Assembly: GCA_020847095.1 (NCBI GenBank)
Contig: JADLCR010000088.1
Location: 46,871-110,870 of the forward strand
Length of the DNA stretch: 64,000 nucleotides
Direction of reading: 5' to 3'
From: Oligoflexia bacterium
GTDB taxonomy: Bacteria > Bdellovibrionota > Bdellovibrionia > JABDDW01
Position numbers and translations under genes: made by a program. Of this stretch, positions 6,689-61,847 are shown in pieces. The notes beneath the pieces were generated by a model that saw only the letters and a list, made by a program, of their open reading frames with translations, did not search any database and was not told the origin of the DNA. Positions within the stretch are counted from its first letter, which is position 1, and the number at the start of each line of letters is the position of its first letter.

Positions 6689-7038
6689 GTTCCGGTTTTT
6701 TTAGTGGCTCTTCTGGTTTTTCTCTTGGTGAGTGGTTTAACTCTAGTGCGCACTTCCTTCACAATTTGATTAGCTTTCTTACGTGCTTCTTTCTCAAGAT
6801 GTTGTAACTGGTCGGCTACGTGGTTGAGTCGATTAATAACGTGTTTAACTTGAGGATCCTTCATGAAGTCCTGAGATTTAACAAATTCCACGAGCCCCTC
6901 AACTCGCTTGACGATTTCACTGTGACTGAGATCCCTCTGAGCTCGTTTTGCAATGCCTTCGATTTGCTTCTGAGCAGTTGCGGCTCGGGAGCGGATCGTC
7001 TTCTTGATTTCTTCGACATCTAATGAAATTCGAGCCAT
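6685..7038 (-). CDS. hypothetical coiled-coil protein with basic C-terminal tail, first gene of the queC operon
   Basis: The stop overlaps the queC start (ATGA). AGGAGG Shine-Dalgarno 7 nt upstream. Alpha-helical, K/R-rich tail. Confidence 0.55.
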   Translation of the reverse strand: MARISLDVEEIKKTIRSRAATAQKQIEGIAKRAQRDLSHSEIVKRVEGLVEFVKSQDFMKDPQVKHVINRLNHVADQLQHLEKEARKKANQIVKEVRTRVKPLTKRKTRRATKKTGT

Positions 7039-7044
7039 GGTAGG

Positions 7045-7089
7045 CCTCCTTTAGTTTGAGACCCAGGAGATTAGCACAGAGCGTCTCAA
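7045..7089 (-). promoter_or_regulatory. candidate RBS-sequestering leader hairpin (riboswitch-like) upstream of the queC operon
   Basis: Minus-strand RNA: UUGAGAC, a 20-nt loop containing CUCCU, GUCUCAA, then ACUAAAGGAGG-N6-AUG. The loop anti-SD can pair with the SD as a pseudoknot. The ACUAA-GG tail is reminiscent of preQ1-I. Confidence 0.25.
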
Positions 7090-7115
7090 CCAACAAGATG
7101 GCAAATGTTAAGCTT

Positions 7116-8813
7116 TTATTGATGAAGGGGCCTAAGAGCGCGAATCATCAGCTGAATCCGACGAGAACCCTGCCAGTAATTCCATGAAGGCTCTACAATG
7201 GCCTCCATCTTTTCGCCTACTTGAACGTCAAATTTGCCCCTGGCAAAAAAGGCAATCCCTTCCATTCGAGCCGTTCGATCATTAAGGATGACTTTCAAAT
7301 GCTGGTCTTTGAGCCATTTCGCCGATGTCACATACACTTGAGGGAGTCTAAAAAGCGGTTGCGGGTTTTCCACGCCAAACGGTCCTAAATGCTTGAGCCA
7401 ATCCATAAAATTTTCGCTAAAGTCCTTAAGCTCAGCATCGACATCATAAGTTTCTCCACCCAAAATGGCGGTCGTCTCATTTTCCGAATAGTATTGAATG
7501 ACCGAGCTTCTAAAATCGCTGAATTTATCGGCTTTCATGCTAAAACCAGCGGCCTGAGCATGGCCCCCAAATCGCTCCAAATGGGCGGATGCAAATGATA
7601 GGGCTTGGGGCAAAATGTGATGCTCCAGGCCTCGGGCACTTCCCGTTCCCTTTTGGTCCTGCCAAGCAACCACAAACGTGGGAAGCCCCGTGATACCGGC
7701 CACTTTTGTAGCGACGAGTCCGACTACTCCCGGATGTCCCGCAGCTCCGAAAACAGCGGCGGCTTGAGGATTTTCCTTATCCAACTGAGCAAGAACTTTT
7801 TCCTCAAGAACACTTTGAAGGTGTTTGCGTTGGGCATTGAGATTAACCACTTGTTCAGCCAACACCTCCGCTTGTCGGTAATCTTCGCACAAAAAGATAT
7901 CTAGCGGTCTTAGACCCTGTTCGAGCCGACTAAGGGCATTGAGCTTCGGAGCCAAACTAAATCCGATATCATAACTATCTAGGCTGCGGTTTTCTAACGA
8001 CAGACGGCGCACCAAAGCCTGAAGGCCAGGACGCTTAGTCTCCGCAAGTCGTTTGAGTCCCAATTTAACTAACGATCGATTCTCGCCCTTAAGCGGGACC
8101 ATGTCACTGATCGTCCCAATAGTGAAAAAATCGAGCACCTCTCGCGGATCAAAATCCGTTACGCCCATGCGGTTCTTTATGGCCAGCAGGAGATAGAATC
8201 CAACTCCAACACCTGCAAGATGCTGAAGCTGAGATTCGCAGTCTCCCCTATTTGGGTTCACAACAGCCACACAATCGGGAAGAATAATTTCAGGCTGAGA
8301 TCGAGGCAAATGATGGTCCGTGATAACAAGATCGAGCCCGAGTTCTTTCGCAAACGCCGCCTCTTCGATGGCTGTTATCCCGCAATCAACGCTGACAACC
8401 ACCTGCGCACCGCGCTCGCGAATGGTCTTCAACGCGTCTTTATGGATTCCGTATCCTTCGGTAAATCTCGACGGTTGGTAGTACTGAACATTTTCAAAGC
8501 CCAACCCTTTTAATCCGTAATAAAGAAGTGCAACACCTGTACTTCCATCAAGATCATAGTCGCCATAGATGCAGATGGTTTCGCCGCTCATTCGGGCCAA
8601 AATCAATCGATCGACGGCTTCATCAATGTCCTTTAATGTAAAGGGACTAGCGAGTTTCGATAGCGATGGACTAAGAAATCCTCCCACCTCTTCTGAGCTT
8701 ACATACCCGCGAGATTTTAATAATTTCCAAATGAGCGATGGCATCGGCATTGGCGGAGATTCAGCCAAAGGCGATATTCTACCCTCAGAACGGGATTTCC
8801 AGATTGGTTCCAT
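7116..8813 (-). CDS. recJ: single-stranded-DNA-specific exonuclease RecJ
   Basis: DHH family motifs ICIYGDYDLDGSTG and DLVITDHH, followed by a DHHA1 region. Length 565 aa. Confidence 0.9.
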   Translation of the reverse strand: MEPIWKSRSEGRISPLAESPPMPMPSLIWKLLKSRGYVSSEEVGGFLSPSLSKLASPFTLKDIDEAVDRLILARMSGETICIYGDYDLDGSTGVALLYYGLKGLGFENVQYYQPSRFTEGYGIHKDALKTIRERGAQVVVSVDCGITAIEEAAFAKELGLDLVITDHHLPRSQPEIILPDCVAVVNPNRGDCESQLQHLAGVGVGFYLLLAIKNRMGVTDFDPREVLDFFTIGTISDMVPLKGENRSLVKLGLKRLAETKRPGLQALVRRLSLENRSLDSYDIGFSLAPKLNALSRLEQGLRPLDIFLCEDYRQAEVLAEQVVNLNAQRKHLQSVLEEKVLAQLDKENPQAAAVFGAAGHPGVVGLVATKVAGITGLPTFVVAWQDQKGTGSARGLEHHILPQALSFASAHLERFGGHAQAAGFSMKADKFSDFRSSVIQYYSENETTAILGGETYDVDAELKDFSENFMDWLKHLGPFGVENPQPLFRLPQVYVTSAKWLKDQHLKVILNDRTARMEGIAFFARGKFDVQVGEKMEAIVEPSWNYWQGSRRIQLMIRALRPLHQ

Positions 8814-8835
8814 CCCCTTACCCCTAATATCTGAC

Positions 8836-9774
8836 TTAGGTTGCTAGCCGCCTGCGTCCAATCGACTCGATCCGTGCCAGACGCCGCTTTTCCATAAATA
8901 CGACAAGCGAGTTTGCCACGAAGATCGTCGAGAACACGCTGATGACAAAACCAATCAACATGCAAAGGGCAAAGTCAGAAAGTACGGGCCCACCCAATAA
9001 CCAAATGCTAACAACAACAAAAAGTGTGCAGATAACTGTCAATACCGTACGACCCAAGTTTAGGTTGATGGATTTATTGACGATCTTTTCAATCGGCCAA
9101 TTTGAATTGGTTTTTGAATAATCGCGAATACGGTCATAAATAACGATCGTATCGTTACATGAATAGCCCGCAATGGTTAAAATTGAAGCAAGAGTGGTGA
9201 GATTAAACTCGCGACCCATTAAGACCCAAATTCCAAGGGTACTCACCATATCAAAGAGCAAAGCTCTCAAAATTCCAGGGGCGAATCGAAAATCAAATCT
9301 CAGAGCAATATAAATGACAATACCAAGACCGGCGTAAAACAAACTTAAAATAGCCGATTGTTTGAGCTTGCTACCTGCCTGTGGCCCAACCACATCGGCT
9401 CGTTTGATTTCGTATTGCCCAGCTTGAAGCTGAGCTGCGAGAGCCTTTTCAACTTGCTCAGAAACGCTCTTAATCTCGTTTGGCAGTGCTTGAATCTTAA
9501 CCAAGAACTCGCTTTGCGCTTCTTCACCAATTTGAACAACGGTGGGGTCGTTGATACCACCTTTGCTTAGCTCTTCACGAACGCGATCAATTTTCCAATC
9601 ATTCGGAACTCGAATATGAACTTCGGCGCCCCCAGTGAAGTCGATGCCATAATTGAGTCCCGGCTTAACCAACAATACGAGGCTAAGAAGCACAAACAGC
9701 GTCGACACGATCACAAACGGTCGGCTGATTTTAAGAAAATCAATTTCTAGGTTAGTTGGAATCAAGTGAAACAT
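8836..9774 (-). CDS. secF: protein translocase subunit SecF
   Basis: Six-TM SecD/SecF family sequence. Lies directly after secD. Confidence 0.9.
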   Translation of the reverse strand: MFHLIPTNLEIDFLKISRPFVIVSTLFVLLSLVLLVKPGLNYGIDFTGGAEVHIRVPNDWKIDRVREELSKGGINDPTVVQIGEEAQSEFLVKIQALPNEIKSVSEQVEKALAAQLQAGQYEIKRADVVGPQAGSKLKQSAILSLFYAGLGIVIYIALRFDFRFAPGILRALLFDMVSTLGIWVLMGREFNLTTLASILTIAGYSCNDTIVIYDRIRDYSKTNSNWPIEKIVNKSINLNLGRTVLTVICTLFVVVSIWLLGGPVLSDFALCMLIGFVISVFSTIFVANSLVVFMEKRRLARIESIGRRRLAT

Positions 9775-15301: not shown

Positions 15302-16003
15302 CTAGGTGACCTTAGGTCTAGGCAGGCCCAGTTGCTCCATAACAATCTGAAGGTCTTGCCAAACGGTCTTTTTTTCTTTTGGATTTCTCAACAGATAGCT
15401 GGGATGAAATGTGGCCAGGACTTTGATCCCGTTTTTTTCAACGAGCTGGCCGCGGCATTCTGAAATCTTTTTTGTCGTTGCTAAGAGCGTTTGAGCCGCC
15501 ACAGCGCCCAACGCAACCACGATTTTTGGATTCACGAGTTTGATCTGCAAATTTAAAAATCTTCCGCACTCAACGACTTCTTCGGGTTTTGGAGTTCTAT
15601 TCTCTGGCGGACGACATTTAACTATATTTGCCAAATAAACTTGGTCACGGGTTAAACCCATGGCCTCAATCATCTTGGTCAACAGCTGACCCGACGGTCC
15701 CACAAATGGGATTCCGACCCGGTCTTCATCTTCCCCTGGAGCTTCTCCAATGAACATGATTGGAGAATTTTTTGGTCCAGTTCCGAAGACTGACTTGGTT
15801 CGAGTTGAACCTAACGGACATCGCTGACAGTTCTCCGCCTCACCTTGTAAGTCGCTCAGGGAAGGCGTTTCTGCCAATTCACCACTCTCTGCGACGGGAA
15901 CGTCCTGGGAAAATTCTGCCGGTCCCGGCAAGAAATTCCGGATTCCTAGAACTTCACGAAAAAAGTTAAGATGGTCTTTTAGCTCTTCACTCATATTACT
16001 CAA
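15302..16003 (-). CDS. uracil-DNA glycosylase, family 4 (Fe-S)
   Basis: Motifs [21 protein letters not shown] and HPSYLLRNP. Confidence 0.85.
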
Positions 16004-16054
16004 GTTTCACGTTACCTCTCCGATGAAGAGGGTGTCAGTCAGGAGGACAGACAC

Positions 16055-16261
16055 ATGGATATCACAAATTTAAATAAGAGCTATATGATTCCCGAAGTTC
16101 CACGAGAAGATTTCGTGGAATACCTCGAAACATGCTGCATCTGCGGCTCCAAGCTTCGGTTTACCCACCAAACCGACTACTTGCAACTGCAAGTACAAGA
16201 AGAAGCCCGATGTCCAGATTGCGGCATTCGTAACAAAACGACTAACTACACATTACAGTAA
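16055..16261 (+). CDS. small zinc-ribbon protein (hypothetical)
   Basis: 68 aa with a CCICGS...CPDCG CxxC pair. Sits between divergent udg and convergent uvrC. Confidence 0.4.
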   Translation: MDITNLNKSYMIPEVPREDFVEYLETCCICGSKLRFTHQTDYLQLQVQEEARCPDCGIRNKTTNYTLQ

Positions 16262-18166
16262 TCATTCGAGATTTTGGGCCTGCTCATCGGTTTCAGAAAG
16301 CTGAAGCAAAATGCGCTCAGCTAAAACCCGATTGAACCCGGGAACTTCTGCAATAGCTTCGGCAGTGGCCGTGCGTATTTGATCAATTGACTCGAACTTC
16401 TTAAGAAGGGCTTTCTTTCGCTTTTCACCAAGGCCAACGACATAATCCAATTCGCTCTCAAGACTTTTATTCTCTCGCAAATGACGATGATAGGTGATGG
16501 CAAAACGATGGGCTTCGTCTCTTATTCCAGTCAAGATATGAAGTGCCTCCGAATTTTTTGCGAAAACCACAGGGTTTTGCCGTTCGGGCAAAAATACTCG
16601 CTCCTCGGTGCCTTTGACATCTTTATCGCTAAAGCGACCCTGAGTTCTTGCTTTAGCGAGCCCACAAACGGGTATCGTTTTACCCATCTCCGCTAAAACT
16701 TCAATGGCCACAGACAGCTGCCCGCGCCCACCGTCAACCACCAGAAGGTGAGGATCATCAAGCTCTTCGTGCTTAAAACGCCTCGATAAAACCTCTTTCA
16801 TCATGGCGAAATCGTTTTGACCCTGAACTGATTTTATTTTGTAGCGTCGATAGTCGTCCTTAAGTGGGACGCCACCTTCGAAAACCACCTGACTTGCAAC
16901 GGCTTCATCACCTTGAAAATTAGAAATATCATAGCACTCAATGCGAATGGGAAGACTTGGCAAATTCAGTTTCGCTTTTATCTCTTCAAGCCCTTGATTC
17001 TTCTTTTCGCTTTTTGAAACATAGGTTTTAAAATGATTTGTCGCATTGGCATGGGCCATTTCAATCAGCTGAGCTCCATCCTTACTGGTTGGAAATCTCA
17101 CCAAGACTTCACGACCCGATCTCTCAAAAAGCACCTGACCCAAAAGTTTATTCAGGTCTTTTCCCAGATCCACCGGTACCAAAACCTCATCTGGAATGAC
17201 ATTTTCAGCGTAGTACTGATTGATAAAGCTCACCAGCCAATCTTGAACGCTTTCATCAGGCGATTGAGGATTAAGTAGGGGCACAAAATGGGGCTGACTT
17301 CCAAGGACCTTTCCCTGTCTGACGTGAAGCACTTCGATGGTGCATCCTCTATCGTCGCCGTCAAAACCAATGGCATCCTGGTCCTTTTCTCGCATCGAAT
17401 CGATCACCGATTGCTTTTGCAGAATGGACTTTAGCGAATTAATCGAATCACGCAGCTTTGCCGCATATTCAAACTGCTCCTGATCTGCAGCGACCTTCAT
17501 TCTCTTTTCAATTTGCTTGACGAGTTGCTTATCGCGACCTCTCAAAAATAGGATCGCGCCCTCAAGCTCCTCACGGTATTGCGACTCATCAACCAGCGCC
17601 ACACAAGGAGCCGTGCAGTGACCAATCTGGTGTGTGAGACACGGACGCGTCCGATTTTTCATGAAATGATCTGCGCAATCGCGAATGCGGAAGGTGCGAT
17701 TCAAAAATCTAATGGTCTCCCAAACCTGAAGCCCAGAAGTAAACGGACCGAAATACTGGGAACCGTCTCTTTTAACTTTCCTGGCCAAATAGAGCCTGGG
17801 AAATTTATCGGTCATACTCACTCGAATGTAGGGATAGGATTTATCGTCCTTGAGCAGGATATTGTATTTTGGACGATGCTTTTTTATCAGCGAGGCCTCT
17901 AAGAGTAATGCCTCTACTTCCGTTCTAGTGACTATGTACTCGATTCGATCGATATGACTGACAAGGTGATAAGTTTTGACACTTTGTTCAGTATTGTTGA
18001 AATAGCTGCGCACTCGATTCTTAAGCGATTTAGCTTTTCCGACATAAATGATCTTCTCAGCGACGTTTTTCATCAAATAAACGCCAGGATCTCCCGGAAA
18101 TCTTGAAACGAGCTCCTTAAGCTCAGTAACTTTTTGATTGAGTTTTGAGGCGTTAAGCTTCGCCAT
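16262..18166 (-). CDS. uvrC: excinuclease ABC subunit C
   Basis: N-terminal GIY-YIG (GVYLMKN...IIYVGKAKSLKNR) and C-terminal RNaseH-like/HhH region. Length 634 aa. Confidence 0.92.
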   Translation of the reverse strand: MAKLNASKLNQKVTELKELVSRFPGDPGVYLMKNVAEKIIYVGKAKSLKNRVRSYFNNTEQSVKTYHLVSHIDRIEYIVTRTEVEALLLEASLIKKHRPKYNILLKDDKSYPYIRVSMTDKFPRLYLARKVKRDGSQYFGPFTSGLQVWETIRFLNRTFRIRDCADHFMKNRTRPCLTHQIGHCTAPCVALVDESQYREELEGAILFLRGRDKQLVKQIEKRMKVAADQEQFEYAAKLRDSINSLKSILQKQSVIDSMREKDQDAIGFDGDDRGCTIEVLHVRQGKVLGSQPHFVPLLNPQSPDESVQDWLVSFINQYYAENVIPDEVLVPVDLGKDLNKLLGQVLFERSGREVLVRFPTSKDGAQLIEMAHANATNHFKTYVSKSEKKNQGLEEIKAKLNLPSLPIRIECYDISNFQGDEAVASQVVFEGGVPLKDDYRRYKIKSVQGQNDFAMMKEVLSRRFKHEELDDPHLLVVDGGRGQLSVAIEVLAEMGKTIPVCGLAKARTQGRFSDKDVKGTEERVFLPERQNPVVFAKNSEALHILTGIRDEAHRFAITYHRHLRENKSLESELDYVVGLGEKRKKALLKKFESIDQIRTATAEAIAEVPGFNRVLAERILLQLSETDEQAQNLE

Positions 18167-41042: not shown

Positions 41043-42338
41043 TTAATGAGTACGGTCAGCTAAAAATTTGGCCTTCTTAACCGCTTCGCCAACATTCAAG
41101 AAACCGCCGCTTGATACTTTGTCGGTAAGAAAAGTCTTCTTTGTGCTCGTTTCTAGTAAAATAGCTTTAACTTCGTTCCATTTTAGATTGGGGTTAGCTG
41201 CTAACATGAGCGCAGCCGCACCGGCGACGTGCGGTGACGCCATCGAGGTTCCACTTAAATACTGAAACCACCCCTTACTCACAGTGTTTCTTAATGGGGT
41301 ATCTAAAGAATAAATGGTATCGCCAGGGGCCACAATATCGACGCTCACTTTGCCGTAGTTAGAAAAGCCCGCGAGCTCCCCTTTATCATTGTAGCTTGCT
41401 GCAACTGAAACAATGTTATCAAGATCATAAGCCGCCGGGTACATAGGAGTCTTGTCGGCGTTGCTACTATCATTGCCAGCAGCCGCTACAAATAGCATTC
41501 CTTTGTCCATGGCGTACTTGATCGCATCATAAAGGGCTGGGTTTGCTTCGTCACTTCCCCAACTGCAATTAATGACTCTTGCACCATTATCCGCAGCGTA
41601 CACGATTGTTTTAATTGCGGCTTCGTCAGTTCCAGAACCATCGGCACCTAGAAATTTAACTGTCATAATGCTTGTGTACCAATTGACACCAGATATTCCG
41701 GACTTGTTCCCACCAACCGCTCCAATGGTGCCCGCTACGTGGGTGCCATGATAATGATTTTCATTGGGCGACGGTGAATTGGTCTCAAAGTTATAACCAT
41801 TCACGTCATCAATGTACCCATTGCCATCGTCATCAATTTTGTTTTTAGATTTATCTTTTCCGTTGGCGTCTTTTCCGAATTCTCCCGGGTTGACCCAAAT
41901 ATTATCGCCAATATCAAAATGCTTCATGAAGGTTCCGGTGTCGGATACGGCCACAACGATCTTTCGATCGCCTTGAGTGATTTTCCACGCCTCAAAAGTG
42001 TTTGAGGCCTTTATCCCCCAAGTGCCTCCGGCCTCTGATTCCATTTGGGAGAGCGTAGGAACGGAGTCGTTCGAAACCAAACGAACTCGTCCATTTCTTG
42101 CGATATACAGAATTTCTCCGGCAGATTTTTCGCCGATTCGGCTCACCGGAAGGCCTTGCCCCTTAATCACCGCCATATTTAGCTGAGGAATAAATGTTTT
42201 GACCGACTGAAATCCATCGAGCTCTTTTAGAGCTTTAATTCCTTTGGCCGTATCTCCACGAAACCGGACAATATATTCCGCGGCACTTCCAACATTGCTG
42301 ATGAGAATTAAAATTAACCCCACAAGACCTGCTCGCAT
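41043..42338 (-). CDS. secreted subtilisin-like serine protease (peptidase S8)
   Basis: VAVSDTGT, HGTHVAGT and GTSMASPHVAG. Signal peptide from the internal Met MRAGLVGLILIL. The ORF track extends to 42407. Confidence 0.88.
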   Translation of the reverse strand: MRAGLVGLILILISNVGSAAEYIVRFRGDTAKGIKALKELDGFQSVKTFIPQLNMAVIKGQGLPVSRIGEKSAGEILYIARNGRVRLVSNDSVPTLSQMESEAGGTWGIKASNTFEAWKITQGDRKIVVAVSDTGTFMKHFDIGDNIWVNPGEFGKDANGKDKSKNKIDDDGNGYIDDVNGYNFETNSPSPNENHYHGTHVAGTIGAVGGNKSGISGVNWYTSIMTVKFLGADGSGTDEAAIKTIVYAADNGARVINCSWGSDEANPALYDAIKYAMDKGMLFVAAAGNDSSNADKTPMYPAAYDLDNIVSVAASYNDKGELAGFSNYGKVSVDIVAPGDTIYSLDTPLRNTVSKGWFQYLSGTSMASPHVAGAAALMLAANPNLKWNEVKAILLETSTKKTFLTDKVSSGGFLNVGEAVKKAKFLADRTH

Positions 42339-42446
42339 GCCCCCTCCTTGGCTCGTTGTTAGAAACTCGACTACGGATAAAAGCCTAGCATGAAAGGGGC
42401 AAAACAATAATGAAGCGGAAAGAAAACTGGACGAACGGCGGGTTGG

Positions 42447-43166
42447 TTAAGGTCGGTCAGTAACGATCGCGGCTTCACCATCTTCATTCAGAAGCCTCTG
42501 GAGATAACGATAGGGAAGCCATGACTGCGGATAGTTAGTTCCCCAACTATTGATGATCTTAACGGCTTGTCTCTCGTCGCTTGCGCCGATGATACAAACG
42601 CAATGTCCTCGATTTCGCTCGTGCCGACCGAGTCCATTTTTTGCGATCCAATAATCTCCTGATATGAGCTCGGGCGAATCCATGTTGTTATACCATTTAA
42701 CGCCAATTGTGACGGGCGTTCCTTTTGAAATGGCGGTGCGAATCTGATCAACATTCTCAGCCCACCTGTTTTCAAGGATCCCTTCCTTTTTATTGGGTCG
42801 GTAGCGCCGTTGGCCCACCACTCGCACATGTCCAAGGCCTCTGAGAATGTCCATGGCCGCCATAACGGTTGTGCCATTTTGATCACCAGGGTTTGTGTCA
42901 GGCCAAATATCCACCTCTTTTGCCATATTCCAAAGCCAACGGGCATCATAATAACGCCGATTCAGAATAGACATCATCCAAGATGAGCCAAAGCCAACGC
43001 AGGCGCCTTCAGAACCTTGATCATATTTCGAAATATAATTTTTGTTAACTTTCAGAACTTTTTCAACGCGGGTCGCGGTCCTTGGAACCAAAGCTGAATA
43101 AGCCCAAAGTCGCTGGTGATCCGTATTATAAGGCGGCTTCCAACCCAGAAGTTTCTTCTTTCCCAT
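42447..43166 (-). CDS. papain-like cysteine peptidase (C1-like), no signal peptide or prodomain
   Basis: Gln six residues before the Cys in QGSEGACVGFGSSW. HCVCIIG and NSWG with papain-like spacing: Cys to His about 135 residues, His to Asn 17. N-terminus MGKKKLLGWKPPY. Confidence 0.6.
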   Translation of the reverse strand: MGKKKLLGWKPPYNTDHQRLWAYSALVPRTATRVEKVLKVNKNYISKYDQGSEGACVGFGSSWMMSILNRRYYDARWLWNMAKEVDIWPDTNPGDQNGTTVMAAMDILRGLGHVRVVGQRRYRPNKKEGILENRWAENVDQIRTAISKGTPVTIGVKWYNNMDSPELISGDYWIAKNGLGRHERNRGHCVCIIGASDERQAVKIINSWGTNYPQSWLPYRYLQRLLNEDGEAAIVTDRP

Positions 43167-43171
43167 CTGCG

Positions 43172-43978
43172 CTAGCCCACTTTCCTAATAGAAATCCGAT
43201 TCTTTAACATGGGGTTGAGAAATCTCTCTTTATCTTGAAGTACTTTGATAGCCTCAGGCTCCACTATCATTCCTGTGGCTTCACTCAGTTTGTCGCTGAG
43301 CGCTTTTGGATCTTTATCTACAAATTCCTCAACATCTTTAATTCCAGCTTTATCAAATAGTTTGCTGATCTCGCGTGGAAGCACTTTCGAAGCCACAAGT
43401 CCGGACTTGCCAATTTTAGTTTTCCAATCCACCTGGCCGTTAACCTTTTTTAACGCCTCTAAACCACCGGCTTTATTTGTAACCCGTTGAAAATCATCGA
43501 CTGAGAAAATTCGATTCTTTTTAAGGGTCTCTATTGTTTCCGCAGGTAAATCCAGTGACTCGATAGGTTCGTGCTTTTCAAGCATCAAAGGCACTTGTGC
43601 ACCAACAACAGGTCTCACTTTCAATCTGAATTGGCCAACACCAGGGCCCGCCTTTTCGCTATCAGCAACGCTAGCAACAATTTGCCCCAAATTGTCTACA
43701 CGTGCCTTGATTGGCAGAACAATGTCGATTTCATCCACCAAAAAAGCGGCGGTTCCGTTTTGATATTTTGTCAGTTCATTTTGCACGCTTGAGAGAGATA
43801 GGGCAATGCTTTCTCCTAGTTCGTGCAACACAACTTCTCCAGTCGTGATGTTTGGACCGCCGGAGTTACCAGAATTTGGGGGAGTGGTAGGGTCCCCGAA
43901 TCGTATCAATGACTGGTTCTTTGCTCGACGTTTGATTGCTTTCTTAGCTATTTTCTTCCGTGATTTCATCTGTCCCAC
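43172..43978 (-). CDS. hypothetical protein with poly-basic N-terminus and RFGDP motif
   Basis: MGQMKSRKKIAKKAIKRRAKNQSLIRFGDP. No signal peptide. Shares its N-terminal architecture with the 45521..46693 product. Confidence 0.5.
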   Translation of the reverse strand: MGQMKSRKKIAKKAIKRRAKNQSLIRFGDPTTPPNSGNSGGPNITTGEVVLHELGESIALSLSSVQNELTKYQNGTAAFLVDEIDIVLPIKARVDNLGQIVASVADSEKAGPGVGQFRLKVRPVVGAQVPLMLEKHEPIESLDLPAETIETLKKNRIFSVDDFQRVTNKAGGLEALKKVNGQVDWKTKIGKSGLVASKVLPREISKLFDKAGIKDVEEFVDKDPKALSDKLSEATGMIVEPEAIKVLQDKERFLNPMLKNRISIRKVG

Positions 43979-44279
43979 TCTCTGTCATCGTCTCTACGGG
44001 CCTTTCCAACCGCCTAACCCCGATTCCAATTCCGGCCGTCATGCGCTCGGATGGTATAAGATCAAGCGTCGATGATACTCCCGCTGAATTTTTTGCAACA
44101 GTAATTGCTGAGATATTGAATCCTAGTTGAATTCGATTCCATACGAAATGACGAGTGGGTGTTCCCACTTGATCTGAAATGAGTTTTGATCTCTCGGCAG
44201 ATTGATCTAACTGGTACTGTGAATCAACGATATGAGCTGCGATTGCGCCCAAAACATTTTGTGCCTTTCGCGACATCAC
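43944..44279 (-). CDS. hypothetical small protein (uncertain)
   Basis: 111-aa ORF. Its start overlaps the upstream gene stop (ATGA) and its end overlaps the next gene start by 35 nt. Confidence 0.35.
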   Translation of the reverse strand: MMSRKAQNVLGAIAAHIVDSQYQLDQSAERSKLISDQVGTPTRHFVWNRIQLGFNISAITVAKNSAGVSSTLDLIPSERMTAGIGIGVRRLERPVETMTESGTDEITEENS

Positions 44280-45502
44280 GCAACCTCGCGATCGGTTATG
44301 GGCTGAGGAATCTCAAGGTGATAGGCCGGATCCTCTTTTGGCTTCAAAAACTTACTGATTCGCTTTTCTTCGGCTACTACTCGCTCAAATGCCACACGAT
44401 CTTTTAGAGATTTCGGATCAATATCAATAACATTGAATTTTTTTGGATCTGCAAGATGTAAAGAAACAGTGCTAGGTCCGATTTCATTTATCTTTCGTTC
44501 CATTTGCTGAATGACTTCTGCCCGCTGTAGATCTCGCGCAATTCCCTTTTCGTAAACTTCTATGATTTTTCTCCCGGGTCCCTTATAGAGTCCTTTCATG
44601 TGTGCCACGCCATGCTTTGCGCAATTGTCATACATGATACGTGCCTGGTCTGCAGGCTTTCTTGCCGTGCTCGTGATGAATGCTCCATGCTCATTACAAG
44701 CTACTAGAATATCTTCCAGAACTCCGAGCGAATAGGTTGAAACCAACTCTTTCTTTGCATTTGGGCCAAACTGAATTTCAATTTTCGCACGTGATTTATT
44801 CAAAGCATTTCTGGTTGACGGCGGAATAGCATTGCCTTCGCGAATCTCTGGGCCGCTAGATTCGATGGGAGCATTGAGTAAATCCATGATGGTTACAGAG
44901 GGGGCAACTGAATGATGTTTGAGCACGTAAACGGCGTCATTAAAAAACTTAATAAACCGATCGCAATGCTCACCAGTGCCTATCGGGTACTGTTTCATTT
45001 TCCATCTGTTTCGAGCCCCGTTGTTGCGCTTAACGCCTCCTGCGTTGTAGGCAGCTGCAACGCGTGGAGGATCAAATTCAGTAACCCTTGACTGAAACGC
45101 GATATAAGCCGTCCCAGCTTTAATCGAATTTCTCGGCTCAAAAAGCCATTCACGACTCACGCTTTGTCTCAGGGTATCGCTCGCCGTTGAAATCAGAGTC
45201 TGCATCAGTCCTGCGCTGATCCGGCTCGGCGTTGCCGAGTCCGACCGAAAACCTGGCTCTTCCCGAACAGCCCTGGGGTTTCCGCTTGATTCCGTACAAA
45301 TGGTGGCGATGATAAGTTCACAGGGAACACGATACTGAGAAGCTATATCGTTGATTATTTCACAATAGGAGTCCCAAACACGTCCAACGGTTCGTGGAGC
45401 ACCTCGAGTGCGCTCCACGCCCGACCCTTCCACCTCGATACCGTCTCTCGTTAAACGCCATCGTGTGCCATTATTAAAATTGTGAAATCGTCCAAGCGAC
45501 AT
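44276..45502 (-). CDS. lytic transglycosylase (SLT domain) fused to an uncharacterized C-terminal domain
   Basis: Family-1 LT motifs TESSGNP, AGLMQ and AYNAG in the N-terminal half. About 200 aa of C-terminal sequence of unknown type. No signal peptide. Confidence 0.72.
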   Translation of the reverse strand: MSLGRFHNFNNGTRWRLTRDGIEVEGSGVERTRGAPRTVGRVWDSYCEIINDIASQYRVPCELIIATICTESSGNPRAVREEPGFRSDSATPSRISAGLMQTLISTASDTLRQSVSREWLFEPRNSIKAGTAYIAFQSRVTEFDPPRVAAAYNAGGVKRNNGARNRWKMKQYPIGTGEHCDRFIKFFNDAVYVLKHHSVAPSVTIMDLLNAPIESSGPEIREGNAIPPSTRNALNKSRAKIEIQFGPNAKKELVSTYSLGVLEDILVACNEHGAFITSTARKPADQARIMYDNCAKHGVAHMKGLYKGPGRKIIEVYEKGIARDLQRAEVIQQMERKINEIGPSTVSLHLADPKKFNVIDIDPKSLKDRVAFERVVAEEKRISKFLKPKEDPAYHLEIPQPITDREVA

Positions 45503-45520
45503 GTGCTTTTGAGATCCGTG

Positions 45521-46693
45521 TTAAATGAGTACCGCAATTTTCTTCGCCAAAACGCCCCATGTCACGGTCACGTTTACCAATGTTGGCTTGTCCTTTTTTT
45601 CTTCGTATGAATATCCAGATCGGGTAATTCTAAAAATGATAGAACCATCATCATTGGCTGGCTGAGAATCGGCAACATAGGATTCTGTTGTGCCTTGCAA
45701 CTTCTTATAAGTAATTCTCATAAACGGATCATCCACATTGACTGTGATTTTTTGCCCTTTATTTCCAACATAGCCAACTTCGTTTCCACCGGTGCCGCCT
45801 TCGGTTCGAGGTGCCTTTTTCAAAACAGCCTCAAATTGATGGTAGCGCCCAATGATCACTGGTTCAGCTGGAACCGTAGGATCATTTGAGACTCCAGGTT
45901 TGGTGACGTCGCCTGATCCTGTCAAATCCACGGCCATCGTTGCGCCCGATTGGATAAGAAAGGGCTTTGGAGCTTCAATTTCTTTTCGCGGCTCAAGAGT
46001 AGCTTCCATATGCATATTGCCAACGGAAGATGTGACAGTGGTGCTCGAATCAGTTGAGCTGCTGTAATTGCTATTATTGTACCCAAGGCTTCCGCTGATG
46101 CTACCGCCGGTCATTCCATAACTGCCATTCACACCAACTTTGAAAGACTCAGATCGGCCTTGGATTTTAAATCCAGTATCAGCATCAAAAGATGCCACTT
46201 TCATATCGGCCTGAAGATGAACTCGGCTCCATTGATAAGAAACTGGTGGTAAAAAGCTAATGACGGGAATCTGACTCTTGATCACTGTTGGAGTGTCGTA
46301 AGTCCCGTCGTCTTTAACTTTTTGCTCTATAATTGTTGGAACTTCTATGTTTGTTTTCGAGAGCTCTTTTGCAGTTTCTACCATGTTTTTATCAAGTGCT
46401 TCTTGAGCATCGGCCACGGCATGACCAATTTTTCCGACGAATTCTCCAAATGCAGGAGTCACATTTGATAACCCAGCAGCCGTGCGCTTAGCCGCATCGG
46501 CGGCCCTAGGGTCACCAAATCTAAGTGCTCCTTTGTTTTTGGCACGAGCTTTTGCTTGTCGCTTCAAGTCTTCTACGATCGCCAAAGCTTCTTTTGTGTC
46601 CTTTGGGAGAGCTTTTAAAAGCTTCGCCGTTTCCTTTTTCACAAATGATGCACCGACAAAATTTTTCTTAAGCTTTCTTGCTGGTTTTCCCAT
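45521..46693 (-). CDS. hypothetical protein with poly-basic N-terminus, RFGDP motif and Gly/Ser-rich beta-rich body
   Basis: MGKPARKLKKNF...KGALRFGDP. Ser/Thr/Gly-rich central segment. No signal peptide. First gene of the five-gene module. Confidence 0.55.
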   Translation of the reverse strand: MGKPARKLKKNFVGASFVKKETAKLLKALPKDTKEALAIVEDLKRQAKARAKNKGALRFGDPRAADAAKRTAAGLSNVTPAFGEFVGKIGHAVADAQEALDKNMVETAKELSKTNIEVPTIIEQKVKDDGTYDTPTVIKSQIPVISFLPPVSYQWSRVHLQADMKVASFDADTGFKIQGRSESFKVGVNGSYGMTGGSISGSLGYNNSNYSSSTDSSTTVTSSVGNMHMEATLEPRKEIEAPKPFLIQSGATMAVDLTGSGDVTKPGVSNDPTVPAEPVIIGRYHQFEAVLKKAPRTEGGTGGNEVGYVGNKGQKITVNVDDPFMRITYKKLQGTTESYVADSQPANDDGSIIFRITRSGYSYEEKKDKPTLVNVTVTWGVLAKKIAVLI

Positions 46694-47735: not shown

Positions 47736-48107
47736 TTACTTTTTTGCTTTTGGCTGCCAAGAACCACATGAGCCTGCGGCCGCAACTAGCCCCGCGGTAA
47801 GCATTTGGCACTTACCCCATCCTGCATTTGATGCGGTGTAGAGTGCGCAATTATCGCAAATCATGTTTTTCTTTTTGAGGTCCTTAAATTGGGGATATTT
47901 TTTTAAGTCCATGGCCTTGGCGTCTTTTTTATAACCAAGGGCAGACGCAACCGCATCCGACTCAGACACTTCCTTTTCACCAGCTGGCAATGCCACTTCA
48001 CCTTTGGCCAATGCCCAAGTGCTTCCAATTGCCTGCACCACTGGGATCGCCGCAGTCACGATCAGGGCAGCTTTCAAGACTTCTCTCCTAGATGTTTCAT
48101 CTTTCAT
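47736..48107 (-). CDS. high-potential iron-sulfur protein (HiPIP) with Tat signal
   Basis: SRREVLKAAL twin-arginine signal. HiPIP Cys pattern CDNCALY...C...C. Confidence 0.8.
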   Translation of the reverse strand: MKDETSRREVLKAALIVTAAIPVVQAIGSTWALAKGEVALPAGEKEVSESDAVASALGYKKDAKAMDLKKYPQFKDLKKKNMICDNCALYTASNAGWGKCQMLTAGLVAAAGSCGSWQPKAKK

Positions 48108-48128: not shown

Positions 48129-48365
48129 TTATGTTGATTTGACAATCTCGAATCCAAAAAACTTTGCGATTTTCTTAGATCTTTTCTTCAGCTTTTTAGC
48201 CTGCTTTTTTAATTTCTTGCGCCGCTTTTTTACGGAAACTCTTGGTTCGACCAAAAATTCACCAGCAATTCCTGAGTCCCCTCTAAAAAATTGAACTAGC
48301 GGAATCGCCGCAAAGAAAAGCAAAATGGATTTGAGCAATTCCCGTCTTGAGCTTTCACTTTTCAA
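48129..48365 (-). pseudogene. truncated HiPIP-like paralog: Tat-type signal plus poly-Lys tail, HiPIP domain missing
   Basis: MKSESSRRELLKSILLFFAAIPLVQ parallels the HiPIP N-terminus, with DNA-level similarity (GCGGCGATYCC...). It continues into KKRRKKLKKQAKKLKKRSKK. Lacks the HiPIP Cys pattern (no Cys). Confidence 0.35.
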
Positions 48366-51698: not shown

Positions 51699-53129
51699 AT
51701 GCTAACAAATTACCGCGCTTTGGTCGCTTCACTTTTTCTTTTGACGGCATGCGCTCAAGATCGTTTTCCATATCAAAAGATTGAAAATCTGACTCGTGAA
51801 TCCATCGGCATTGCTCCCCAACCATCACCGACTCCTCATCCAACAGGCACGCCACCTCCGGCTCCCCTTCAACAAGGTTTAATCATTCACCCTCAAAATC
51901 CTCATTATTTTTTGGATCTCGAATCTGGCCGCCCCTTACTCATTGCCGAGTACTCAACCCTTGCACCAAGCTCGCCCTCCTATGTGGCGGCAAACGAGAT
52001 CGAAGTGATTCGCCAAAATGGTGGCCGCTATACTCGCATTTGGCATTTGCTCCCCTGGGAGCGAGGGACCTTTTGGCCCTGGGCAAGAAGCTCTACGCCT
52101 GGTGCGCCCATGGGCGGAAATAAGTATGATTTCAATCTGTGGGATCCAGTTTATTGGGGTCGGCTTAATGAGACTTTGAAAATCGCCACCGAATCAAGAA
52201 TCACGTCTGAGATTCACCTCTTTGATCGATGTGGACTTTCACCAGCTTCAGTGGATCGCTATGAGGGTAACCCCTGGGCCAGCGATAACAATATTAATGG
52301 TTTAGAGCTGCCAAGAGCTAATTCAGATGGAACTCCGGAATTCTATCAGTATCGACTGCGACCCAATTTGCGAGCCCAACAAGAAAAGTACGTTCGGAAG
52401 ATGATTGATGAGACCGTCTCTTTTAACATCATCTACGAAATTGAAAATGAGCACTGGGAGTTGAATGATCCAGACTTCGCTGATTACTATGCTCAATTCG
52501 TAAAAAACCATATCGCCACTCATTATCCCAATCACCGTCGCCTGATTTCGTACAGTAGCCTTGAAGATGATCTGGAAGCATTTTACACCCGAAACTCTGT
52601 CGATATCGTGAACAAGCATTTTGGAAACGATGTCGAAGATAATCCAGATTTGCTGAATCAATATCTTGAGCCTCGGTGGAGACACAACAAGCCCATCAAC
52701 ATTGATGAATTTGCCAATGGAGTCACAAGCCCTGATGTATTGAGAAAGATGGTTTGGATAATCGTGACAAGTGGCGGTCATTTTCATATTGAAGACGCAA
52801 GAGACGAATCCAACCCTTGGGGTGTGGTCAATAATCTGCGAACTTTCATAGCTGATTCAAACTGGAATTTTATTAGCGCTTCACCTAACCGATCGATGAG
52901 TTCGGGCTATTGTATGCAAAATCCAGGTACGGAATATTTTTGCTATTTTCTGCCGTCCAAAGCATCAAAGACTCTAAACGGAATTCCCTCAGGAAACTAT
53001 CGCGTACGATGGTGGAATCCTCGGGCCGGTGGTTGGGAAAAAGAAGAGGCCGTCAATTCGCAAGGATCCCTCACGATTACGGCCCCTGATAAGCAAGACT
53101 GGGCGTTATTTATTCAACGTCGCAACTAA
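51699..53129 (+). CDS. hypothetical lipoprotein, possibly TIM-barrel glycoside-hydrolase-like
   Basis: Lipobox LFLLTAC. IYEIENEHW resembles a GH5-type NEP region only weakly. Confidence 0.45.
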   Translation: MLTNYRALVASLFLLTACAQDRFPYQKIENLTRESIGIAPQPSPTPHPTGTPPPAPLQQGLIIHPQNPHYFLDLESGRPLLIAEYSTLAPSSPSYVAANEIEVIRQNGGRYTRIWHLLPWERGTFWPWARSSTPGAPMGGNKYDFNLWDPVYWGRLNETLKIATESRITSEIHLFDRCGLSPASVDRYEGNPWASDNNINGLELPRANSDGTPEFYQYRLRPNLRAQQEKYVRKMIDETVSFNIIYEIENEHWELNDPDFADYYAQFVKNHIATHYPNHRRLISYSSLEDDLEAFYTRNSVDIVNKHFGNDVEDNPDLLNQYLEPRWRHNKPINIDEFANGVTSPDVLRKMVWIIVTSGGHFHIEDARDESNPWGVVNNLRTFIADSNWNFISASPNRSMSSGYCMQNPGTEYFCYFLPSKASKTLNGIPSGNYRVRWWNPRAGGWEKEEAVNSQGSLTITAPDKQDWALFIQRRN

Positions 53130-61205: not shown

Positions 61206-61847
61206 TTAAAGGCTAAATTCAAAATAGTCTGATGCATCGGTGCCTTCGCAAGTATAGACGCGAAATCCATGTTCATCACGCAGATCCGAATGCGGTTTTG
61301 CTGTAACTCTATGAGTGCCGCCGGTGAGCGGGCCTACTTTTATTAAGAATGGATTGCGGTTCATATTCCATGCCTGTGATGTCCCACTATAAGCAATTGA
61401 CGGTCCTCTCGGATCTTCGCAATGTCTGCCGCCACAAGAATCGTGTTCGGCATTGCAGGGGCCACCGCGCGTGTCACCATCAAAACGCTGAAACCGAGGA
61501 GTTGTGTCGATAACTACGTACCCACCGACCACAGGTTTCTCAACTGGCTGGTTATTCCCATCCATCACATTGAGAAACCCTTGGCTAACTCCCCATTTGA
61601 TCAAGCATGGGCAGGCGATCGGCGTAGAGCTCGGTGTCGGTGTCGCTGATGCGCTGACCGTTGGTGAGGGCAATGGTGTCAAAGTTGGCTGCGGAGATGG
61701 TGAAATTTGTTGAGTGCCATTTGACTGATTCTTGATTTCCGCCGGCAATTTAAAAGTAGAATCCTGGGCGCACCCCGAGCTCACAACAATTGCTACCAAA
61801 CCAATAGCAAATAAGATGACTGAATTGATATCCCATTTTCTTTCCAT
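61206..61847 (-). CDS. hypothetical secreted protein with Pro/Thr/Ser linker and Cys-rich C-terminal domain
   Basis: Signal peptide followed by SGCAQ. PT-rich linker. Ten Cys. Confidence 0.5.
   Translation of the reverse strand: MERKWDINSVILFAIGLVAIVVSSGCAQDSTFKLPAEIKNQSNGTQQISPSPQPTLTPLPSPTVSASATPTPSSTPIACPCLIKWGVSQGFLNVMDGNNQPVEKPVVGGYVVIDTTPRFQRFDGDTRGGPCNAEHDSCGGRHCEDPRGPSIAYSGTSQAWNMNRNPFLIKVGPLTGGTHRVTAKPHSDLRDEHGFRVYTCEGTDASDYFEFSL

What the first reader, a model, noticed from the sequence alone, without database searches (positions are those of the whole stretch)
43172..46693. Shared Met-Gly, poly-basic N-termini with an RFGDP motif in two otherwise dissimilar proteins of the module
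Two proteins open the same way:
- 43172..43978 begins MGQMKSRKKIAKKAIKRRAKNQSLIRFGDP.
- 45521..46693 begins MGKPARKLKKNF...KNKGALRFGDP.

The C1 peptidase also starts MGKKK. This looks like a common targeting, packaging or nucleic-acid-binding leader.

MGQMKS happens to fit the eukaryotic N-myristoylation consensus (M-G-x-x-x-S) followed by a poly-basic patch. That is speculative and unlikely to matter for a bacterial predator, but it is testable.
Basis: seen in the sequence. Interest (0 to 1): 0.55.

Follow-up and report, generated by a model that had tools for sequence, protein, structure and literature searches.

The report
Shared basic N-terminal arm, lineage-private
Two neighbouring proteins in an uncharacterised five-gene operon (a cell-wall hydrolase, a peptidase and three proteins of unknown function) really do share a 19-residue basic N-terminal segment ending in RFGDP, but it occurs nowhere else in the public data searched, so it is a private feature of this lineage rather than a general targeting signal.

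Summary
The sequence observation is real. Protein A (45521-46693, minus strand) and protein D (43172-43978, minus strand) share KRQAKARAKNKGALRFGDP / KKAIKRRAKNQSLIRFGDP. None of 400,000 composition-preserving shuffles reaches this score, and it is the best of 1,770 N-terminal pairs in the window. Six of the 11 identical residues use different codons and there is no DNA repeat, so the similarity is at protein level.

The shared "Met-Gly" start is not robust. D's MGQ depends on a GTG start; NCBI annotates the ATG three codons downstream (MKSRKK). Peptidase E's MGKKK aligns with a region conserved across the E family, not with the leader. The myristoylation idea is not supported.

A and D are genes 1 and 4 of a tight operon:
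- A: basic arm, long helix, beta-rich region, Big_1 domain
- B: SLT muramidase
- C: small paralogue of A's core
- D: helix-beta core plus tandem HhH domains
- E: papain-like peptidase

The operon recurs in at least nine bacterial phyla and one Methanosarcina (archaeal) MAG. The peptidase type varies (E-type papain-like, PF00112 C1, trypsin-like, or none), and the neighbours are often conflict-system genes.

The leader itself is private. A profile search of 1.84 billion proteins, a metagenome DNA scan and 13 other loci found no second case.

Best guess (0.35): D acquired A's arm, which serves as a common docking or processing element on a polyanion-binding helix.

The parts
45521..46693 (-). 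Gene A (390 aa). It has a polybasic N-terminal leader of about 79 aa, a long conserved helix (AFGEFVGKIGHAVADAQEALDK), a Gly/Ser-rich beta region with the invariant HMEATLEPR, and a C-terminal Big_1 Ig-like domain.
   Evidence: ORF and translation. Identical to NCBI MAG Oligoflexia protein IT289_11170. Family alignments A1/A3. Big_1 in 13 of 18 members. AGGAG 9 nt upstream of the ATG.
46508..46564 (-). Shared leader element in A, residues 44-62: KRQAKARAKNKGALRFGDP.
   Evidence: In the low-confidence A model, the basic part (residues 44-52) is the end of helix 31-52. NKGALRFGDP (53-62) falls in the non-helical stretch 53-63. The element ends 19 residues before the conserved core motif AFGEF.
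44276..45502 (-). Gene B (408 aa). It has an N-terminal SLT lytic-transglycosylase domain and a conserved C-terminal domain of unknown family. From reading the sequence, there is no signal peptide.
   Evidence: Pfam SLT, 1.1e-16. 41-52% identical orthologues in 14 loci. The C-terminal half has no Pfam match.
43944..44279 (-). Gene C (111 aa). A small helix-plus-strands protein, probably a truncated paralogue of A's core. Its start overlaps B's stop, and its 3' end overlaps D's 5' end.
   Evidence: Family alignment A9. hhalign of C against A gives E 2.5e-4, probability 43%.
43172..43978 (-). Gene D (268 aa from GTG 43978; 265 aa from ATG 43969, the more likely start). It has a basic leader, a helix-plus-three-strand core starting at EVVLHELGES, and two helix-hairpin-helix domains.
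43889..43945 (-). Shared leader element in D, residues 12-30 (GTG numbering): KKAIKRRAKNQSLIRFGDP. It begins where the overlap with gene C ends.
   Evidence: Model: helix 4-20, then residues 21-48 non-helical, with pLDDT below 50 over residues 20-44. It ends 17 residues before EVVLHELGES.
42447..43166 (-). Gene E (239 aa). A papain-like cysteine peptidase with no signal peptide. Its MGKKK start belongs to a family-conserved N-terminal region, not to the shared leader.
   Evidence: phrog_16701 peptidase, 3e-21. Invariant Q50, C56, H188, N206 and W208. The profile hits PDB 3ois cysteine protease at 2e-7.

Best explanation
The shared element is a short linear motif on a duplicated N-terminal arm. 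It consists of a polybasic helix ending in RAKN, four variable residues, and an exposed RFGDP turn. In each protein it sits in a flexible linker just upstream of the first conserved helix.

In this Oligoflexia lineage, protein D has an evolutionarily plastic N-terminus. It most likely acquired a copy of the arm that protein A carries in most lineages. Selection then kept RAKN and RFGDP while the codons drifted.

Proposed function: the basic helix holds both proteins on the same anionic surface (membrane inner leaflet or nucleic acid). The RFGDP turn is a common docking or cleavage site for a partner in the operon, most plausibly the papain-like peptidase E. A and D would then be co-localised and co-processed.

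Shown:
- the motif, its statistics and its protein-level conservation;
- its placement in low-confidence, non-helical linkers of the models;
- the conserved operon with a swappable peptidase.

Inferred:
- the duplication origin;
- surface binding;
- recognition or cleavage by E.
For: - The motif is non-random and conserved at protein level.
- The geometry is the same in both proteins: basic helix, then motif, then 17-19 residues, then the first conserved helix. The motif lies in non-helical, low-confidence segments of the models.
- A-B-C-D-peptidase is a conserved, translationally coupled operon found in Bacteroidota, Acidobacteriota, Chloroflexota, Actinomycetota, Dormibacterota, Spirochaetia, Gemmatimonadales and a Methanosarcina MAG.
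- The fifth gene is a peptidase whose family is swapped between loci: E-type papain-like, PF00112 Peptidase_C1 (L085) or trypsin/Nal1-like (L077, L078). This is the pattern of protease-effector modules, in which proteolysis of the neighbouring proteins is the point (Evans et al. 2025, doi 10.1101/2025.11.14.688446; Kaur et al. 2020, PMC7159879).
- A-family leaders carry a semi-conserved hydrophobic-Gly-Asp/Glu element at the equivalent place: LGVGETAAD, LTVGETAAD, compared with RFGDPRAAD.
- [IL]-R-F-G fits the hydrophobic-P2 preference of papain-family enzymes. This rests on established knowledge and was not tested here.
- Basic extreme N-termini recur in A: net positive over the first 25 residues in 13 of 18 loci.
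- Basic tails recur at either end of D.
Against: - A-D leader similarity within a locus is absent in all 13 other loci tested. Shared recognition of A and D is therefore not a general property of the operon.
- The leader occurs nowhere else in 1.84 billion representative proteins. Conservation over time cannot be measured.
- Loci without any peptidase still have long A leaders (L005, L017, L079).
- E may be a cell-wall peptidase rather than a processing enzyme. A 25%-identical homologue sits between lysin A and holin in the lysis cassette of Gordonia phage Aleemily.
- No cleavage, binding or localisation data exist.
- A good Shine-Dalgarno sequence plus GTG at Val50 could produce a leaderless D isoform.
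Confidence: 0.35

Rival explanations
1. Purely electrostatic arm. The polybasic helix binds nucleic acid (supporting D's HhH domains) or acidic phospholipid. RFGDP is only a helix cap and turn, with no partner recognition or cleavage.
For: - Basic tails in the D family occur at the N-terminus (window, L077, L079) or at the C-terminus (L005, P0024, Chloroflexi P0016-P0021). Position independence suits charge-based binding.
- D's C-terminal half resembles (HhH)2 modules of RAD51, NusA and RNA polymerase alpha C-terminal domain.
- A's extreme N-terminus is basic in most phyla.
Against: - Charge alone does not explain exact conservation of RAKN and RFGDP with divergent codons.
- The score exceeds every one of 400,000 shuffles that keep the basic composition.
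- The hydrophobic face of the helix is small (Ile and Ala only), which is weak for membrane insertion (from the sequence).
Confidence: 0.28
2. Evolutionary relic. A segment of A's leader was copied onto D's 5' end (or the reverse) within the operon. What remains is decaying similarity with no specific function.
For: - D's N-terminus is the most plastic part of the operon: absent, short, or up to five transthyretin-like repeats.
- The similarity is unique to this lineage.
Against: In the two identical blocks (9 codons), six codons differ synonymously and none differs non-synonymously. Neutral decay should not spare the amino acids. This test is weakened because the blocks were chosen for being identical.
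Confidence: 0.17
3. Non-classical export or translocation signal that sends A and D, and with them the signal-less hydrolases, out of the cell or into prey.
For: - From reading the sequences, none of the five proteins has a Sec, Tat or lipoprotein signal, yet B is a muramidase.
- The genome is an Oligoflexia MAG.
Against: - The motif is absent from every other protein in the searched libraries, including other proteins of this MAG that are their own cluster representatives.
- B and E lack it.
- Homologous operons in non-predatory phyla have unrelated leaders.
- No secretion-system genes lie next to the operon.
Confidence: 0.08
4. Chance resemblance of two low-complexity basic N-termini, or a eukaryote-type N-myristoylation plus polybasic membrane signal.
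For: - Both regions are rich in Lys, Arg and Ala.
- MGQMKS fits M-G-x-x-x-S if the GTG start is used.
Against: - Chance: 0 of 400,000 shuffles reach the score. Extrapolating the tail gives about 4e-6 per pair, or about 0.01 after correcting for 1,770 pairs.
- Myristoylation: D's likely start is ATG/MKS. A and E lack Ser/Thr at position 6. Gly2 is not conserved in homologues. Bacteria lack N-myristoyltransferase (established knowledge).
Confidence: 0.03

Closest known systems
Protease-associated effector modules of prokaryotic conflict systems (Pepco = Trypco1/2, EACC1; Kaur et al. 2020 eLife, PMC7159879; Evans et al. 2025 bioRxiv, 10.1101/2025.11.14.688446)
   Same: - Small proteins with an N-terminal helix followed by beta strands (C, and the cores of D and A) are encoded next to a peptidase.
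- The peptidase family is exchangeable (cysteine or trypsin-like).
- No secretion signals.
- Patchy distribution across phyla.
- Neighbours include CHAT, caspase-WD40, TIR_2 and SLATT_4 genes.
   Different: - No Pfam or PADLOC match to Trypco, Pepco or any defence family.
- The operon has five genes, including an SLT muramidase and an HhH protein.
- No sensor NTPase.
- Pepco is cleaved in a C-terminal tail, whereas the motif here is N-terminal.
- Cleavage is untested.
Phage holin-endolysin lysis cassettes
   Same: - A signal-less lytic transglycosylase plus a peptidase.
- A muralytic enzyme is retained even when the SLT gene is missing (L007 has an M15 + PG_binding + GH19 protein).
- The Methanosarcina MAG locus lacks both the SLT and peptidase genes. 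Methanosarcina has no murein (my own knowledge).
- An E homologue sits in a Gordonia phage lysis cassette.
   Different: - No transmembrane holin in the operon.
- A is absent from 50,697 phage records, 72,556 plasmids and the IMG/VR viral contigs.
- The flanking genes in the window are chromosomal housekeeping genes.
Effector-associated domains (EADs, Death-like adaptors) shared by proteins of one conflict operon
   Same: The same N-terminal module appears on two otherwise unrelated proteins of one operon. This implies recruitment to a common partner.
   Different: EADs are folded helical domains of roughly 80-100 residues found across many genomes (my recollection of PMC7159879). Here the shared part is 19 residues, partly disordered, and unique to one locus. 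Homology was not tested.
Eukaryotic N-myristoylation plus polybasic membrane-targeting signals (Src/MARCKS type)
   Same: A Met-Gly start (A, E) followed by a Lys/Arg cluster.
   Different: - The position-6 rule is not met in A and E.
- D's Gly2 depends on a doubtful GTG start.
- Gly2 is not conserved in homologues.
- Bacteria have no N-myristoyltransferase.

Membership tests
Eukaryote-type N-myristoylation signal | Initiator Met followed by Gly2 | tested here: inconclusive
   A (MGKPARK) and E (MGKKK) have Gly2. D has it only from GTG 43978. The NCBI start is ATG 43969, giving MKSRKK.
Eukaryote-type N-myristoylation signal | Small or hydroxyl residue (Ser/Thr) at position 6 | tested here: not met
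   A has Arg6 and E has Leu6. Only D read from the GTG has Ser6.
Eukaryote-type N-myristoylation signal | Gly2 conserved in orthologues | tested here: not met
   A, D and E orthologues start MA, MS, MP, MH or MN.
Sec/Tat/lipoprotein signal peptide | Hydrophobic core of 10 or more residues after a short basic n-region; twin-Arg or lipobox motif | tested here: not met
   Reading the sequences shows no hydrophobic stretch in the first 80 residues of A or D. By contrast, genuine Tat and lipoprotein N-termini are present elsewhere in the window. No dedicated predictor was run.
Pepco/Trypco protease-activated effector | Sequence membership in the Trypco1/Trypco2 families | tested here: not met
   No Trypco family appeared among Pfam hits at E up to 1 for A, C or D and their homologues. 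A-D and C-D profile comparisons are not significant.
Pepco/Trypco protease-activated effector | Conserved adjacency to a peptidase gene of variable family | tested here: met
   The peptidase is E-type papain-like in 8 distinct loci besides the window (L001, L004, L007, L011, L012, L014, L016, L018), PF00112 in L085 and trypsin/Nal1-like in L077 and L078. It is absent in the Chloroflexi loci, L015 and L079.
Pepco/Trypco protease-activated effector | Site-specific cleavage by the neighbouring peptidase that activates a toxic activity | not testable with these tools
   This needs co-expression and biochemistry.
Papain-like (clan CA, C1-like) cysteine peptidase (protein E) | Gln, Cys, His and Asn(-x-Trp) catalytic residues in papain order and spacing | tested here: met
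   Q50, C56 (six residues apart, as in papain Gln19/Cys25), H188 and N206-x-W208 are invariant in 8 orthologues. The profile hits PDB 3ois cysteine protease at E 2e-7.
Papain-like (clan CA, C1-like) cysteine peptidase (protein E) | Pfam PF00112 match above the gathering score | tested here: not met
   E and its 7 orthologues give only one weak Peptidase_C39_2 hit. The positional analogue in L085 does match PF00112 (58.7 bits).
Phage-type lysis cassette | Muralytic enzyme without a signal peptide | tested here: met
   B has an SLT domain at 1.1e-16. No signal peptide is visible in the sequence.
Phage-type lysis cassette | Small transmembrane holin, and location in a phage genome | tested here: not met
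   No transmembrane-like ORF in the operon. A is absent from phage, plasmid and viral-contig collections.
   Only two copies in the window. Only the two window proteins plus one spurious hit among 1.84 billion representatives. 57 chance-level DNA hits in metagenomes. The rest of this MAG was covered only indirectly, through the protein library.

The most novel reading that the evidence does not exclude
The five-gene operon is a previously undescribed, horizontally mobile, protease-gated autolysis or defence module. On this reading, the peptidase (papain-like, C1 or trypsin-like) removes N-terminal arms from a beta-rich pore-former (A) and its HhH partner (D). That releases signal-less muramidases onto the cell wall. 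In this Oligoflexia lineage, RAKN....RFGDP is the common recognition or cleavage site that licenses both substrates at once.
Probability: 0.12. Interest if true: 0.7.

Novelty: new variant of a known kind. Interest (0 to 1): 0.4.

Why it matters
The motif itself matters little. It is a one-lineage peculiarity with no sign of being a general signal.

Its value is as a pointer to a compact, widely scattered and apparently undescribed operon. That operon combines:
- a signal-less lytic transglycosylase;
- a peptidase whose family varies between loci;
- an HhH protein;
- two paralogous proteins built from a helix followed by beta strands.

It often sits beside known conflict-system genes.

If the operon is a protease-licensed lysis or defence module, the duplicated arm gives a concrete, mutable handle. 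Two substrates carry one candidate recognition site, which can be used to test how the peptidase selects its targets.

Tried and rejected
1. Chance. Rejected by 400,000 shuffles and an all-pairs control in the window.
2. DNA repeat or recent gene conversion. Rejected: 58% nucleotide identity, synonymous codon differences and no repeat found.
3. General leader. Rejected by the profile search of 1.84 billion proteins, the metagenome DNA pattern scan (the hits were HtrA-type proteases, retroelement Gag-like ORFs and non-coding frames), and a literature search for RFGDP.
4. Co-varying A/D leader motif across loci. Tested on 14 loci; only the window stands out.
   - The P0029-P0033 D proteins have an LGGE/LGDE element at a similar position.
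   - It could not be paired with the corresponding A leaders, because the contigs are too short or have no DNA held.
5. A and D as paralogues. The hhalign comparison is not significant. Only C against A reaches E 2.5e-4.
6. DUF2589 membership of A. Only 1 of 18 members gives a weak hit.
7. Known defence systems. PADLOC and NCBIfam give nothing.
8. Structure of A. The AlphaFold model is too poor to search (pLDDT 53.6).
9. Structure of D.
   - The model is usable, but Foldseek against the PDB gives no significant hit.
   - AFDB50 was unavailable.
11. My reading that the 122-aa protein upstream of the caspase-WD40 gene in L081 is EACC1-like was not supported by Pfam.


Full report
**Observation**

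The region holds five tightly packed minus-strand ORFs:
- A: 45521-46693, 390 aa
- B: 44276-45502, 408 aa
- C: 43944-44279, 111 aa
- D: 43172-43978, 268 aa from a GTG
- E: 42447-43166, 239 aa

The spacing indicates translational coupling. A and B are 18 nt apart. B's stop overlaps C's start. C and D overlap by 26-35 nt. D and E are 5 nt apart.

The quoted N-termini are correct. RFGDP occurs only twice in the six-frame translation of the whole window, both at these sites.

The similarity is longer than reported. A residues 44-62 (KRQAKARAKNKGALRFGDP) match D residues 12-30 (KKAIKRRAKNQSLIRFGDP). That is 11 of 19 identical residues and an ungapped BLOSUM62 score of 61.

**Statistics**

- None of 400,000 shuffles that keep each N-terminus's composition reaches 61. 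The mean is 23.7, the SD 4.2 and the maximum 60.
- Extrapolating the tail gives roughly 4e-6 per pair. That is about 0.01 after correcting for all 1,770 pairs of first-80-residue segments among 60 window ORFs.
- This pair ranks first among those 1,770 pairs.
- The runner-up (53) is two lipoproteins sharing a lipobox and a Pro/Thr linker. That is a genuine functional N-terminal signal.
- At DNA level the 57-nt segments are 58% identical. Six of the 11 identical residues use different codons. In the two perfect blocks (RAKN, RFGDP), six of nine codons differ, all synonymously.
- No DNA repeat joins the two sites.

The match is therefore at protein level. This also argues that D's leader is translated.

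**Start codons and the Met-Gly idea**

- A's ATG has AGGAG 9 nt upstream and matches the NCBI protein.
- D's GTG at 43978 has no usable Shine-Dalgarno spacing. The ATG at 43969 has a purine-rich stretch upstream and is the NCBI start (P0013, 265 aa, MKSRKK...).
- A further GTG at Val50 is preceded by GGAG at 5-nt spacing. It could give a leaderless isoform resembling Chloroflexi D proteins, which begin directly at the core.
- E's MGKKKLLGWKPP aligns with the conserved M..PLGRRVPxDW region of its family.

The common "MG" start is therefore incidental. The M-G-x-x-x-S fit exists only for the unlikely GTG reading of D.

**What the proteins are**

*Protein A*
- It has homologues of about 35% identity, with a variable N-terminal region of about 80 residues.
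- The core is strongly conserved: AFGxFVKSVGLAVAxAQxELDK, PTAYQWSRV and HMEATLEPR.
- The C-terminus is a Big_1 domain in 13 of 18 members.
- Its AlphaFold model is poor (pLDDT 53.6).

*Protein B*
- It has an SLT lytic-transglycosylase domain (1.1e-16).
- A conserved C-terminal domain has no Pfam match.

*Protein C*
- It is a small helix-plus-strand protein.
- Its profile aligns with A's core helix and its PPSAxxW element (hhalign E 2.5e-4, probability 43%).

*Protein D*
- It models well (pLDDT 77.6).
- Residues 4-20 form a low-confidence helix and 21-48 are non-helical, with pLDDT below 50 over residues 20-44. RFGDP lies inside this stretch.
- The core is helix 51-71 plus three strands.
- Foldseek against the PDB gives no significant hit.
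- Family members hit DUF4332, Cdd1 and HHH_5.

*Protein E*
- It is papain-like. Q50, C56, H188, N206 and W208 are invariant.
- Its profile hits PDB 3ois cysteine protease at 2e-7 and phrog_16701 at 3e-21.

From reading the sequences, none of the five proteins has a signal peptide.

**The operon elsewhere**

The A-B-C-D-peptidase arrangement recurs in MAGs or genomes of the following:
- Bacteroidota
- Pyrinomonadaceae
- Anaerolineae and other Chloroflexota
- Actinomycetota (Planotetraspora, Herbidospora, Acidimicrobiales)
- Dormibacterota
- Spirochaetia
- Gemmatimonadales
- a Methanosarcina MAG

A is absent from IMG/VR viral contigs, 50,697 phage records and 72,556 plasmids.

The fifth gene varies between loci:
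- E-type papain-like in most loci.
- A bona fide PF00112 Peptidase_C1 in L085.
- Trypsin/Nal1-like in L077 and L078.
- None in the Chloroflexi loci, L015 and L079.

The muralytic component also varies:
- L007 lacks the SLT gene but has an M15_4 + PG_binding_1 + GH19 protein after E.
- The Methanosarcina locus lacks both B and E.

Neighbours in several loci are conflict-system genes:
- two trypsins, CHAT and TIR_2;
- SLATT_4 and CHAT;
- C14 caspase-WD40;
- PIN and NOV_C.

PADLOC and NCBIfam recognise nothing in the operon. In the window, the flanking genes are ordinary: an S8 subtilase, a methyltransferase, HiPIP, a 5'-nucleotidase and glpX.

**The leader in comparative view**

- A's extreme N-terminus is net positive over its first 25 residues in 13 of 18 loci. 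The window's leader is the most basic (+14 over 79 residues).
- About 20 residues before the core, A leaders carry a loosely conserved hydrophobic-Gly-Asp/Glu element. LGVGETAAD, LTVGETAAD and PLGAAQASPAE align with the window's RFGDPRAAD.
- D's N-terminus is the most plastic part of the operon. It can be absent, short and neutral, short and basic (window, L077, L079), or one to five transthyretin/CarboxypepD_reg-like repeats.
- Basic tails also occur at D's C-terminus (L005, P0024, Chloroflexi).

The A-D leader similarity is unique to the window. In a 14 x 14 matrix of A leaders against D pre-core segments, the window's own pair scores 61 and every other cell, within-locus or cross-locus, scores 12-35.

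Outside these loci, nothing was found:
- A two-sequence leader profile searched against 1.84 billion representative proteins returned only the two window proteins and a spurious repeat protein.
- A degenerate DNA pattern for AKN-x4-RFGDP in metagenome contigs gave 57 hits. I had estimated about 60 by chance.
- None of those hits was N-terminal, basic or followed by an A or D core.
- The literature has no such motif.

**Interpretation**

The most economical history is that D, whose N-terminus is freely exchanged in evolution, picked up a copy of A's arm. RAKN and RFGDP were then retained by selection while the codons diverged.

On function, two things are suggestive:
- The element has the same geometry in both proteins. 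A basic helix is followed by the motif in a flexible linker, 17-19 residues before the first conserved helix.
- A peptidase of interchangeable family is a recurrent member of the operon. This is the signature of protease-effector modules such as Pepco/Trypco and EACC1, where the neighbouring small proteins are the substrates.

I therefore favour, at modest confidence (0.35), a shared docking or processing motif riding on a polyanion-binding helix. [IL]-R-F-G is compatible with the hydrophobic-P2 preference of papain-type enzymes. That rests on established knowledge and was not tested.

The main rival (0.28) is a purely electrostatic arm for nucleic acid or membrane. It is favoured by the position-independent basic tails in the D family and by D's HhH domains. 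It does not explain the exact motif.

A decaying duplication relic (0.17) and a non-classical export signal (0.08) remain possible. Chance and myristoylation are effectively excluded.

There is a caveat for the processing model. E may itself be a cell-wall peptidase. A 25%-identical homologue lies between lysin A and holin in Gordonia phage Aleemily. In that case the operon would look more like a holin-less lysis cassette.

**Novelty and verdict**

The motif is not a known signal and is not general. The operon appears uncharacterised, although it is built from familiar parts.

I rate it as a new variant of a known kind (protease-associated or muralytic conflict-type modules). Interest is moderate, and lies mainly in the operon rather than in the leader.

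Noticed in passing
window 47736-48107 (-) and 48129-48365 (-): A HiPIP gene with a twin-arginine signal (MKDETSRREVLKAALIVTAAIPVVQA) is preceded by a 78-aa ORF with a near-duplicate Tat-like N-terminus (LKSESSRRELLKSILLFFAAIPLVQF). That ORF continues into an extreme polybasic tail (KKRRKKLKKQAKKLKKRSKKIAKFF) whose KRSKKIAKF resembles D's KSRKKIAKK. It may be a decayed HiPIP duplicate.
   Followed up: partly
window 41043-42407 (-); L012:11845-13251: An S8 subtilase gene lies directly downstream of peptidase E in the window, and also in the Actinomycetota locus L012 (Pfam S8, 5.6e-47). This is two of roughly twenty loci, so it may be coincidence or an accessory component.
   Followed up: partly
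window 43829-43831 (GTG, Val50 of D): An internal GTG is preceded by GGAG at 5-nt spacing. It could initiate a leaderless D (M-LHELGES...), like the Chloroflexi D proteins that begin at the core.
   Followed up: no
L007:12103-13362: This Actinomycetota locus lacks the SLT gene B. It encodes an M15_4/VanY + PG_binding_1 + GH19-like protein right after E. A muralytic enzyme is therefore kept in a different form.
   Followed up: partly
L015 (Methanosarcina sp. UBA289 MAG): This archaeal locus has A, C and D only, with no muramidase and no peptidase. Its A and D leaders are very short and not basic.
   Followed up: partly
L019:14230-15402 and 15422-16528: The Gemmatimonadales locus carries two further A-like paralogues downstream of A-B. 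No D or E was detected by BLAST.
   Followed up: no
L081:247-2471; L079:619-1182 and 6797-9181; contig of P0003: Conflict-system genes flank the operon in several loci. These are a C14 caspase-WD40 protein with a 122-aa partner, SLATT_4 and CHAT, and two trypsins + CHAT + TIR_2. This suggests a defence-island location.
   Followed up: partly
L083 (Gordonia phage Aleemily) 4947-5624: A 25%-identical homologue of peptidase E, annotated as a cysteine protease, sits inside the phage lysis cassette between lysin A and holin. In Streptomyces phage Wakanda, the homologue sits next to terminase instead.
   Followed up: partly
window 51699-53129 (+) and 61206-61847 (-): Two lipoproteins share a lipobox (LTACAQD / SSGCAQD) and a Pro/Thr-rich linker. 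They are the second-best N-terminal pair in the window (score 53).
   Followed up: no
L021, L025, L027, L041, L047, L053, L062, L063, L076; L067, L068: The metagenome pattern hits fall into unrelated recurring contexts. One is AKNLLA[RQE]RFGDP in retroelement Gag-like ORFs. Another is DAKNLP[FV]VRFGDP in HtrA/DegP-type serine proteases.
   Followed up: no
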